A DNA stretch of 16,473 nt from a virus, in the UHGV virus genome UHGV-0341991, one strand, 5' to 3'. This document shows positions 13,337 to 14,325 of the stretch, in pieces; the first letter of the stretch is position 1; every line of letters begins with the position of its first letter. The notes under the pieces are model-generated. The model was not told where the DNA came from, searched no databases, and saw only the letters and a list, made by a program, of their open reading frames with translations. A program made the position numbers and the translations under genes.

Positions 13337-13756
13337 TTACTCATCATCAATAGATGATACGCAATATTTATTTTTAAATTTAAGGTTCTTTGGCGTAACT
13401 TCATCAGATATATCAAAACCGTCCAGAATTCTATTGAATGTAGCTTCTGGCATATCATCATGAACAGAAATCTCACCCGATCGCTGCTTTCTAACCATGT
13501 TATCCACTCGCCAAATTATAGCTTCAGCGTAAACAACATAACTTGGATGCTTGATAAAGCGATGATCACCAGAATTCAAGACGCAAGACGGATCGTGGGG
13601 GACACCATCCTTGATACTAGAAATATTAACAACTAAAACACAATAACAATCGTTAACGGGGTAATAAACAGGATCATTACAAATCACATGAAGATGATTG
13701 CATGGCCCTGTTGGGGCAAGCACAGTTCCTTTCCTGTATGGCTGATAATCCGTCAT
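13337..13756 (-). CDS. Hypothetical 139-aa protein translationally coupled to the Panacea-domain gene; candidate toxin/effector (PanT-like)
   Basis: ATG at 13756 overlaps the upstream TGA (ATGA at 13753..13756). Protein-like composition; no domain recognised by eye. Confidence 0.6.
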   Translation of the reverse strand: MTDYQPYRKGTVLAPTGPCNHLHVICNDPVYYPVNDCYCVLVVNISSIKDGVPHDPSCVLNSGDHRFIKHPSYVVYAEAIIWRVDNMVRKQRSGEISVHDDMPEATFNRILDGFDISDEVTPKNLKFKNKYCVSSIDDE

Positions 13757-14325
13757 GATAATTGCAAAGAAAATTCCTTAAGTTTCTGAGATTCTTCCAT
13801 TTTGCCAATTATATGATTAGCCTCATCCTCGCTTTTACCCTCACTGATCAGCATTTCTTTCAGATCTATAGGCTTACGGGAATAGCCGGGATCGTGCCAC
13901 TCTGGACAAACGCTTTCTAAATGCGTCATGTTTGCGAGATCAAATCGGTTCATATGCCCATACAGAGAATAGATTTCATCTAAAATCCGGATATCTGCAC
14001 GGCTCAACTCATCAAAGACCTCGTCTGCATCCATTTCCCTCGGATCTGAACGCAACAACACATCATGCCCGTTCGTCTCTATCAAGTTGTACCAGTAGTC
14101 ACCAATGCCTTCAGCCTTACCACGAATCAAGTTCAGCGTATTCGACATGACTGGTCCAAATTTCATAGAGTAAAGGCTATCTTCGCCGATCATCCTGCCA
14201 TGCTTCAAAATCGACTTGCGGTTAGACAGATAGAGCAGCTTCATCAGTTTCAGATATGCCATGCGCCCACCTCGCTTAAGAAGTAGGTATGCAGCCATTT
14301 GAGCTACTTTTTCTTCGCAAAACAT
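13753..14325 (-). CDS. Panacea-domain (DUF4065, SocA/GepA-like) protein; candidate antitoxin (PanA-like)
   Basis: N-terminal EKVAQMAAYLL..GRMAYLKLMKLLYLSNRKSI..GPVMS fits the Panacea/DUF4065 signature as recalled. GAGG lies 8 nt before ATG 14325. Confidence 0.6.
   Translation of the reverse strand: MFCEEKVAQMAAYLLLKRGGRMAYLKLMKLLYLSNRKSILKHGRMIGEDSLYSMKFGPVMSNTLNLIRGKAEGIGDYWYNLIETNGHDVLLRSDPREMDADEVFDELSRADIRILDEIYSLYGHMNRFDLANMTHLESVCPEWHDPGYSRKPIDLKEMLISEGKSEDEANHIIGKMEESQKLKEFSLQLS

What the first reader, a model, noticed from the sequence alone, without database searches (positions are those of the whole stretch)
13337..14325. Panacea-domain gene translationally coupled to a 139-aa ORF of unknown fold: candidate toxin-antitoxin or abortive-infection module
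The 190-aa ORF carries what I read as a Panacea/DUF4065 N-terminal signature; Panacea domains are established as promiscuous antitoxins that neutralise unrelated toxins encoded next to them. Its stop overlaps the start of the 139-aa ORF by 4 nt (ATGA), the classic coupled two-gene layout. The partner has no domain I can place; it contains an R-x6-H stretch (RSGEISVH) that is only suggestive of a HEPN-like RNase. The pair sits in an AT-rich island at the prophage edge, bounded by intrinsic terminators, where phage-borne defence cargo is typically found.
Basis: partly seen in the sequence, partly recalled or inferred. Interest (0 to 1): 0.8.

Follow-up and report, generated by a model that had tools for sequence, protein, structure and literature searches.

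The report
Prophage PanA antitoxin with MazF-fold toxin
This is a two-gene toxin-antitoxin cassette carried at the edge of an E. coli prophage: a Panacea-domain antitoxin followed by a toxin with a MazF-type fold. It belongs to a class whose Pseudomonas member has already been shown to be a working toxin-antitoxin pair, so it is a real but largely known kind of system.

The parts
13753..14325 (-). panA: 190-aa Panacea-domain antitoxin. Panacea core about residues 1-137, a conserved T134-H135...C140-P-E142-W143 stretch, and an acidic C-terminal helix at 166-189.
   Evidence: PF13274 67.9 bits. PGAP names it 'Panacea domain-containing protein'. AF2 model pLDDT 90.8. Conservation. Charge of residues 138-190 is -4.4.
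13337..13756 (-). panT: 139-aa putative toxin with a MazF/Kid/CcdB-type fold, Kurata cluster T6. Conserved polar residues are H21, D55, C58, H65, S72 and S/T46-47.
13753..13756 (-). ATGA stop/start overlap (translational coupling). There is no Shine-Dalgarno within 15 nt of the panT ATG.
   Evidence: Sequence. The same -4 overlap is found in 15 of 29 homologous loci.
14334..14337 (-). GAGG Shine-Dalgarno, 8 nt upstream of the panA ATG.
   Evidence: Sequence. GAGG is also present in the Kosakonia and Proteus cassettes.
14454..14482 (-). Promoter-like site TTGACC-17-TAAACT inside the cassette-specific upstream DNA. Candidate panAT promoter, unverified.
   Evidence: Consensus scan, 9 of 12 matches, no more sites than in shuffled sequence. 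Not conserved in other cassettes.
13300..14520 (.). Cassette-specific DNA (~1.2 kb), absent from the related phage mEp460, which has an unrelated 177-aa gene in this slot.
   Evidence: Partial matches, annotation, alignment A6. GC 0.407.
14520..14600 (.). Phage attP arm and att crossover with host dusA.
   Evidence: Identical in the window, phage SKA5, prophage KE54 and mEp460 up to about 14589. Beyond that the window carries host-type dusA SNPs.
14563..14685 (-). Orphaned host dusA 5' end (40 codons, then out of frame), reading toward panA with no predicted terminator in between.
   Evidence: ORF. Identified as the DusA N-terminus from my own knowledge, and annotated 'tRNA-dihydrouridine synthase'. 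Terminator scan.
13080..13105 (-). Intrinsic terminator (11-bp stem then a T-run) ending the minus-strand transcript after the 57-aa backbone ORF. Probably bidirectional with xis.
   Evidence: Sub-threshold Rfam hits on the same hairpin.

Best explanation
A type II PanAT toxin-antitoxin cassette carried as exchangeable cargo by a dusA-integrating lambdoid prophage of E. coli. panA and panT are co-transcribed, and panT translation is coupled to termination of panA at the ATGA overlap. PanA (Panacea core plus an acidic C-terminal helix) binds and neutralises PanT. PanT has the MazF/Kid beta-barrel fold and, when freed, arrests growth by blocking protein synthesis, most likely as a metal-independent endoribonuclease. 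Family-invariant H21 and the S/T46-47 pair sit where the secondary-structure order places the MazF catalytic Arg and Thr. Shown here: domain, fold, family membership, strict gene pairing, and cargo status. Shown by others for a homologous pair at about 43% identity: toxicity, neutralisation, complex formation, and translation-specific inhibition. Inferred: RNase chemistry, which residues are catalytic, neutralisation through the C-terminal helix, and the biological role (exclusion of other phages and/or prophage retention).
Against: No experiment exists on this E. coli pair. Kurata et al. found 8 PanTs non-toxic in E. coli, so toxicity is not guaranteed, although the two enterobacterial non-toxic ones belong to an unrelated cluster, T1. 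There is no sequence-level link to PemK/MazF: no Pfam hit in 101 members, hhalign probability 0.3%, and no PDB sequence hit. The family has no conserved Arg equivalent to the MazF catalytic Arg, and its conserved set (His, Asp, Cys, His) differs from any MazF. RNA cleavage has not been shown for any T6 member. There is no PADLOC hit. No conserved promoter or operator lies upstream.
Confidence: 0.7

Rival explanations
1. Same two-gene toxin-antitoxin module, but the toxin is not a MazF-like RNase. The conserved H21/D55/C58/H65 set forms either a Zn2+ site or a Cys-His-Asp catalytic centre on a MazF scaffold, acting on a protein or nucleotide target in translation.
For: H21 is 100% conserved, D55 98%, C58 97% and H65 99% across 101 diverse members, and no Arg is conserved. 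No sequence similarity to MazF was detectable. PMC10440598 cautions that a shared fold need not mean shared biochemistry.
Against: Every characterised enzyme with this fold that ranked high (MazF, Kid, CptN, ToxN, AbiQ) is an endoribonuclease. The homologous P. moraviensis toxin specifically inhibits translation.
Confidence: 0.15
2. The pair is a PanA-plus-partner module that is not toxic in E. coli, or the partner is not a toxin at all. In that case it would be a regulatory or sensor pair rather than a toxin-antitoxin system.
For: Kurata et al. found eight PanA partners non-toxic in E. coli, including an E. coli prophage pair and a Salmonella phage pair. NetFlax proposes that Panacea is mainly a sensor.
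Against: Those non-toxic pairs are cluster T1, which is unrelated to this partner (hhalign 0.25%, BLASTP E 2.6). The tested T6 member was toxic and was neutralised. The pairing and the -4 coupling are tightly conserved.
Confidence: 0.12
3. The partner is a CcdB-like gyrase poison rather than a translation inhibitor.
Against: MazF and Kid score higher, and all top-50 Foldseek hits are MazF. The homologous toxin inhibits 35S-Met incorporation specifically.
Confidence: 0.03
4. The partner is a HEPN-type RNase using the R-x6-H stretch RSGEISVH.
For: The motif is literally present at residues 92-99.
Against: R92 is Arg in 10 of 101 members and H99 is His in 35 of 101. The protein is predicted as a beta-barrel with C-terminal helices, whereas HEPN domains are alpha-helical bundles (established knowledge). 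No HEPN Pfam hit was found.
Confidence: 0.01

Closest known systems
PanA-PanT of Pseudomonas moraviensis (Kurata et al. 2022, PNAS; toxin cluster T6)
   Same: Same antitoxin subfamily (N-terminus M(I)F.E.KVAQMAAY, ~185-190 aa) and same toxin family (a Pseudomonas pair of this type is 42-43% identical). Same antitoxin-then-toxin order with a -1/-4 overlap. The toxin was predicted MazF-like by HHpred there and by fold search here.
   Different: This copy is in E. coli, on a dusA-integrating lambdoid prophage next to attR, and has not been tested. The P. moraviensis locus was scored 'NotPhage'. I could not retrieve the P. moraviensis toxin sequence itself, so the link runs through other listed T6 members.
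MazEF and Kis-Kid (PemIK) type II toxin-antitoxin systems
   Same: The toxin fold (SH3-like beta-barrel plus C-terminal helix), the antitoxin-first bicistronic layout, an acidic antitoxin, and translation as the target.
   Different: There is no detectable sequence homology. The antitoxin is a Panacea-domain protein rather than an AbrB/MazE-type one. The toxin lacks the conserved catalytic Arg and has its own conserved His/Asp/Cys/His set. It also has an extra ~25-residue C-terminal helix.
SocAB (type VI toxin-antitoxin system, Caulobacter)
   Same: The antitoxin carries the same Pfam domain (SocA_Panacea).
   Different: The NCBIfam SocA equivalog scores 13.4 bits against a cutoff of 190. The partner is not SocB. 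Kurata et al. found that PanA proteins neutralise by direct binding rather than as ClpXP adaptors.
Type III toxins ToxN / CptN / AbiQ
   Different: Those toxins are neutralised by repeat RNA antitoxins. Here the antitoxin is a protein, and no repeats were found upstream.

Membership tests
Panacea-domain antitoxin (PanA; Pfam PF13274) | Pfam PF13274 match above the gathering threshold | tested here: met
   67.9 bits against 25.7, residues 27-137.
Panacea-domain antitoxin (PanA; Pfam PF13274) | Conserved adjacent partner gene within 100 nt in two or more species (Kurata's TA-like locus criteria) | tested here: met
   29 of 30 loci from different species have the pair. The gap is -4 in 15, -1 in 2, and 62 nt or less in the rest. 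All 28 scanned upstream ORFs are PF13274.
Panacea-domain antitoxin (PanA; Pfam PF13274) | Neutralises and binds the cognate toxin | not testable with these tools
   Shown for the homologous P. moraviensis pair only (PMC8832971).
PanT toxin cluster T6 (Kurata et al. 2022) | Sequence homology to listed T6 members | tested here: met
   57% identity to P0254 = WP_101821906.1, a T6 entry. Homologues were found in the listed strains Pantoea septica LMG 5345 and 2016-Iso4, with the same overlaps.
PanT toxin cluster T6 (Kurata et al. 2022) | Toxic on expression, with translation inhibited | not testable with these tools
   Reported for the P. moraviensis member. Not done for the E. coli copy.
PemK/MazF toxin family (Pfam PF02452) | Sequence-profile match to PF02452 or to MazF/Kid profiles | tested here: not met
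   No hit for the window protein or for any of 101 family members. hhalign probability 0.3% against five validated MazF/Kid sequences. No PDB sequence hit.
PemK/MazF toxin family (Pfam PF02452) | CcdB/MazF-type beta-barrel fold | tested here: met
PemK/MazF toxin family (Pfam PF02452) | Catalytic Arg (E. coli MazF R29) and Thr (T52) | tested here: inconclusive
   No Arg is conserved in the family. S/T at 46-47 is 85% and 98% conserved, and H21 is 100% conserved. The equivalence rests on secondary-structure order judged by eye. Forced profile alignment failed, and no coordinates were available.
HEPN RNase | Conserved R-x4-6-H motif in an alpha-helical domain | tested here: not met
   R92 is Arg in 10 of 101 and H99 is His in 35 of 101. 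The predicted fold is a beta-barrel.
SocAB type VI toxin-antitoxin system | SocA equivalog model (NF047745) above its cutoff | tested here: not met
   13.4 bits against a cutoff of 190.
Catalogued anti-phage defence systems (PADLOC-DB 2.0) | Match to any defence-protein model | tested here: not met
   No hits for either protein at E <= 0.1.

The most novel reading that the evidence does not exclude
The T6 PanT family (over 2,700 cluster representatives, no Pfam model) is a MazF-fold enzyme that has replaced the Arg/Thr RNase centre with a conserved His-Asp-Cys-His constellation. It would perform different chemistry (metal-dependent, or Cys-His-Asp-type) on the translation apparatus. In prophages it would act as an abortive-infection effector that PanA releases on sensing an incoming phage.
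Probability: 0.12. Interest if true: 0.65.

Novelty: new member of a known kind. Interest (0 to 1): 0.33.

Why it matters
The analysis names a gene that RefSeq labels 'hypothetical' in about 4% of complete E. coli genomes (205 of 5,426), and corrects its start codon. It ties that gene to a validated PanAT class. It also shows that this class is a widespread phage moron that moves between cargo slots: next to attP here, inside the lambda-like tail operon in Enterobacter/Klebsiella, and beside the repressor in Vibrio. The toxin family is large, has no Pfam model and has no biochemical characterisation. Its conserved residues differ from MazF, so it is a reasonable target for working out a variant active site and for testing whether Panacea acts as a phage sensor. 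None of this is surprising to a toxin-antitoxin specialist.

Tried and rejected
- **HEPN reading:** rejected by conservation and fold.
- **Sequence link to MazF:** A forced global hhalign to map catalytic residues gave nonsense.
- **Net charge as an argument against RNA binding:** the window toxin has pI 5.6, but the family spans 4.8-10.5 and classical MazFs span 5.1-10.6, so charge is uninformative.
- **Published 'not toxic' results** for an E. coli prophage pair and the Salmonella phage Emek PanA pair: these looked relevant at first, but they are cluster T1, unrelated to this partner.
- **Conserved promoter or operator upstream of panA:** no inverted or direct repeats, and no conservation beyond the SD/ATG across six cassettes.
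- **General integrase adjacency:** only one locus other than the query had a hit within 4 kb by a crude phmmer test.
- **Rfam:** only sub-threshold hits on the terminator hairpin.
- **Solved Panacea structure:** none found by sequence or fold.
- **The 57-aa downstream ORF as a third component:** rejected, because it is phage backbone present in mEp460 without the cassette.
- **Tool limits:** a locus search with the broad alignment A2 failed for lack of conserved stretches.

Full report
**Observation.** The window holds two minus-strand ORFs exactly as described: 13753..14325 (190 aa) and 13337..13756 (139 aa). The TGA of the first overlaps the ATG of the second as ATGA at 13753-13756. The 190-aa protein matches Pfam PF13274 (SocA_Panacea) at 67.9 bits against a gathering score of 25.7, over residues 27-137. 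RefSeq calls the identical protein 'Panacea domain-containing protein'. The 139-aa protein has no Pfam, NCBIfam or PADLOC match, and hits only an unannotated PHROG (phrog_19071, E 3.4e-31).

**Where the window comes from.** It is an E. coli lambdoid prophage integrated in dusA. Left of the pair lie a PrtN-family excisionase (12768..13076), an exonuclease and Ea22-like genes. To the right, an orphaned 40-codon 5' end of host dusA runs 14685 to 14563, followed by host core genes (a DUF2713 protein, then zur). I aligned the window with phage SKA5, prophage KE54 and phage mEp460. The four share an attP arm at about 14520-14589, and the crossover with host dusA lies near 14590-14600. mEp460 has the same xis / 57-aa ORF / attP / int frame, but a single unrelated 177-aa gene occupies the slot. 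DNA from about 13300 to 14520 is therefore a ~1.2-kb exchangeable cassette. Its GC content is 0.407, against 0.492 for the rest of the prophage. The cassette is present at 80% coverage or more in 205 of 5,426 complete E. coli genomes, and the pair is encoded in nine phage records.

**Start codon.** PGAP starts the second gene at a GTG 11 codons downstream, which has a good AGGA motif. In an alignment of 54 homologues from many genera, M1, P6, K9, G10 and T11 are conserved at 90-100%. The first beta-strand of the model begins at residue 10. The -4 overlap recurs in 15 of 29 homologous loci. The ATG start and translational coupling are therefore the better reading. panA has a GAGG 8 nt upstream of its ATG, while panT has no SD within 15 nt.

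**What the partner is.**
- An AlphaFold2 model built on 54 homologues is confident (pLDDT 90.2, pTM 0.84). It shows a five-strand beta-barrel followed by three helices.
- All top-50 Foldseek hits in the PDB are MazF endoribonucleases (probability about 1.0, TM 0.45-0.63).
- No sequence method sees this relationship. There was no Pfam hit in 101 diverse members, no PDB hit with the family profile, and an hhalign probability of 0.3% against five classical MazF/Kid sequences.
- An exhaustive HMM search finds 2,703 cluster representatives at E <= 1e-3 and 929 at E <= 1e-10, so this is a large unnamed family.
- Across 101 diverse members the conserved polar residues are H21 (100%), D55 (98%), C58 (97%), H65 (99%), S72 (95%) and S/T47 (98%). 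L22, G63, F67, Y76, G113 and S117 are also conserved.
Together with the beta-barrel fold, this rules out HEPN.

**Pairing with Panacea.** A scan of one genome per species returned 32 loci, from Enterobacterales to Alpha- and Betaproteobacteria. I could delimit the family gene as an ORF in 30 of them. In 29 of those, a ~185-aa ORF lies immediately upstream on the same strand. The 30th has the gene too close to the contig end to see upstream. All 28 upstream ORFs that I scanned, plus the window's own, match PF13274.

**Link to published work.** Kurata et al. 2022 (PMC8832971) catalogued partners of Panacea antitoxins. Their toxin cluster T6 contains the P. moraviensis PanT, annotated by HHpred as 'EndoA/PemK/MazF-family RNases', along with Enterobacterales entries in antitoxin-then-toxin order with -4 or -1 overlaps. 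Three lines tie the window pair to T6:
- My homologue P0254 is 57% identical to the window protein. It is WP_101821906.1, the T6 entry for strain 2016-Iso4.
- The Pantoea septica LMG 5345 and 2016-Iso4 loci reproduce the tabulated overlaps.
- In a Pseudomonas locus, PanA begins MIFSEQKVAQ, the ten residues Kurata et al. quote for P. moraviensis PanA, and the overlap is -1. That pair is 43% (toxin, E 1e-32) and 42% (antitoxin, E 1e-31) identical to the window pair.

For the P. moraviensis pair the paper reports toxicity in E. coli, rescue by PanA, a PanA:PanT pull-down complex, and selective loss of 35S-methionine incorporation. RNA cleavage itself was not shown.

**A possible counter-result, checked.** The same paper lists an E. 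coli prophage pair and the Salmonella phage Emek pair as 'not toxic'. Both are cluster T1. Emek gp16 is unrelated to the window's partner (hhalign 0.25%, BLASTP E 2.6), and Emek's PanA is only 24% identical to the window's. That negative result concerns a different partner family.

**The antitoxin.** The PanA model (pLDDT 90.8) shows the Panacea core, a conserved T134-H135...C140-P-E142-W143 segment just past the Pfam domain, a short helix at 155-161 and a long helix at 166-189. The tail (residues 138-190) carries a net charge of -4.4, and the subfamily is acidic overall, with a median pI of 5.3. NetFlax (PMC10440598) describes two PanA modes: direct neutralisation by the Panacea core, or 'linear' neutralisation by an appended element. 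Which applies here is unknown. An acidic C-terminal helix occupying the toxin's substrate groove, as MazE does with MazF, is my inference. No solved structure resembles PanA, by sequence or by fold (best Foldseek E 2.1).

**Mechanism proposed.**
- *Shown here:* a coupled antitoxin-toxin operon, a MazF-type toxin fold, membership of cluster T6, and strict co-inheritance of the two genes.
- *Shown for a homologue:* toxicity, neutralisation by binding, and translation as the target.
- *Inferred, chemistry:* PanT is an endoribonuclease. By strand order, H21 (early in strand 2) and S46/S47 (end of strand 4) occupy the positions of MazF R29 and T52. D55, C58 and H65 lie in the well-ordered 48-71 loop.
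- *Inferred, transcription:* it may start at a weak promoter-like site (14454-14482), and/or read through from the host dusA promoter in the lysogen, since no terminator is predicted between dusA' and panA. It probably ends at the terminator at 13080-13105, after the 57-aa backbone ORF. No upstream element is conserved between cassettes.

**Biological role.** The cassette behaves as a moron. In Enterobacter/Klebsiella it sits between lambda-like tail genes K and I/J. In Proteus it lies at a prophage end beside the tail fibres, once next to an Abi_2 gene. In Vibrio it sits beside a CI-like repressor and PrtN. This fits either superinfection exclusion (abortive infection) or prophage retention, but neither has been tested, and there is no PADLOC match.

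**Verdict.** The system is a new, untested member of a known and validated PanAT class. The remaining unknowns are the toxin's chemistry, given its non-MazF conserved residues, the trigger, and any defence role.

Noticed in passing
window 13337-13756 (-); L001 15238-15624: RefSeq/PGAP annotates the toxin gene from an internal GTG (128 aa, WP_014640052.1). This removes 11 conserved N-terminal residues and part of the first beta-strand, and hides the ATGA coupling.
   Followed up: yes
window 14520-14685: This is the att junction of a dusA-integrating prophage. A 40-codon orphan of the host dusA 5' end reads toward panA. The phage itself (SKA5, mEp460) carries a near-identical surrogate dusA 5' end next to int, differing by scattered SNPs.
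   Followed up: partly
L035 2895-3428 (-) (phage mEp460 gp23): A 177-aa gene of unknown function with no Pfam hit occupies the same cargo slot in mEp460. It is a candidate alternative moron or defence gene.
   Followed up: partly
window 13124-13297 (-): A 57-aa ORF (MEDQKATKPQV...) with no family match. It is conserved as phage backbone between xis and the cargo slot (mEp460 gp24), and is probably co-transcribed with whatever cargo is present.
   Followed up: partly
L037-L039 4432-5453; L042 2657-5408; L043/L044 4442-5399: The same PanA-PanT cassette is inserted between lambda-like tail genes K and I/J in Enterobacter/Klebsiella prophages, sits next to an Abi_2 gene in a Proteus prophage, and sits beside the CI-like repressor in a Vibrio element. 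It moves as a unit between phage cargo slots.
   Followed up: partly
model me266f42b1013 (window 13753-14325): No solved PDB structure resembles the Panacea-domain model (best Foldseek E 2.1), and no PDB sequence matches the profile. The fold appears to have no experimental structure in this PDB copy.
   Followed up: partly
window 15048-16010 (-): A 320-aa DUF2713 protein gene in very AT-rich host DNA (GC 0.32-0.37) between dusA and zur. It is present in most E. coli but mostly at 90-95% identity, so it is a variable host locus.
   Followed up: no
L001 16500-16720 vs window 14600-14760: In strain KE54 the DNA right of the att junction differs from the window. zur follows directly, with no dusA 5' orphan or DUF2713 gene, which suggests a deletion or rearrangement at that junction.
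   Followed up: no
window 13072-13144: Sub-threshold Rfam matches (rnk_pseudo at 32 bits against 55; sroH; P9) all fall on the bidirectional terminator hairpin. They are most likely generic hairpin matches.
   Followed up: yes
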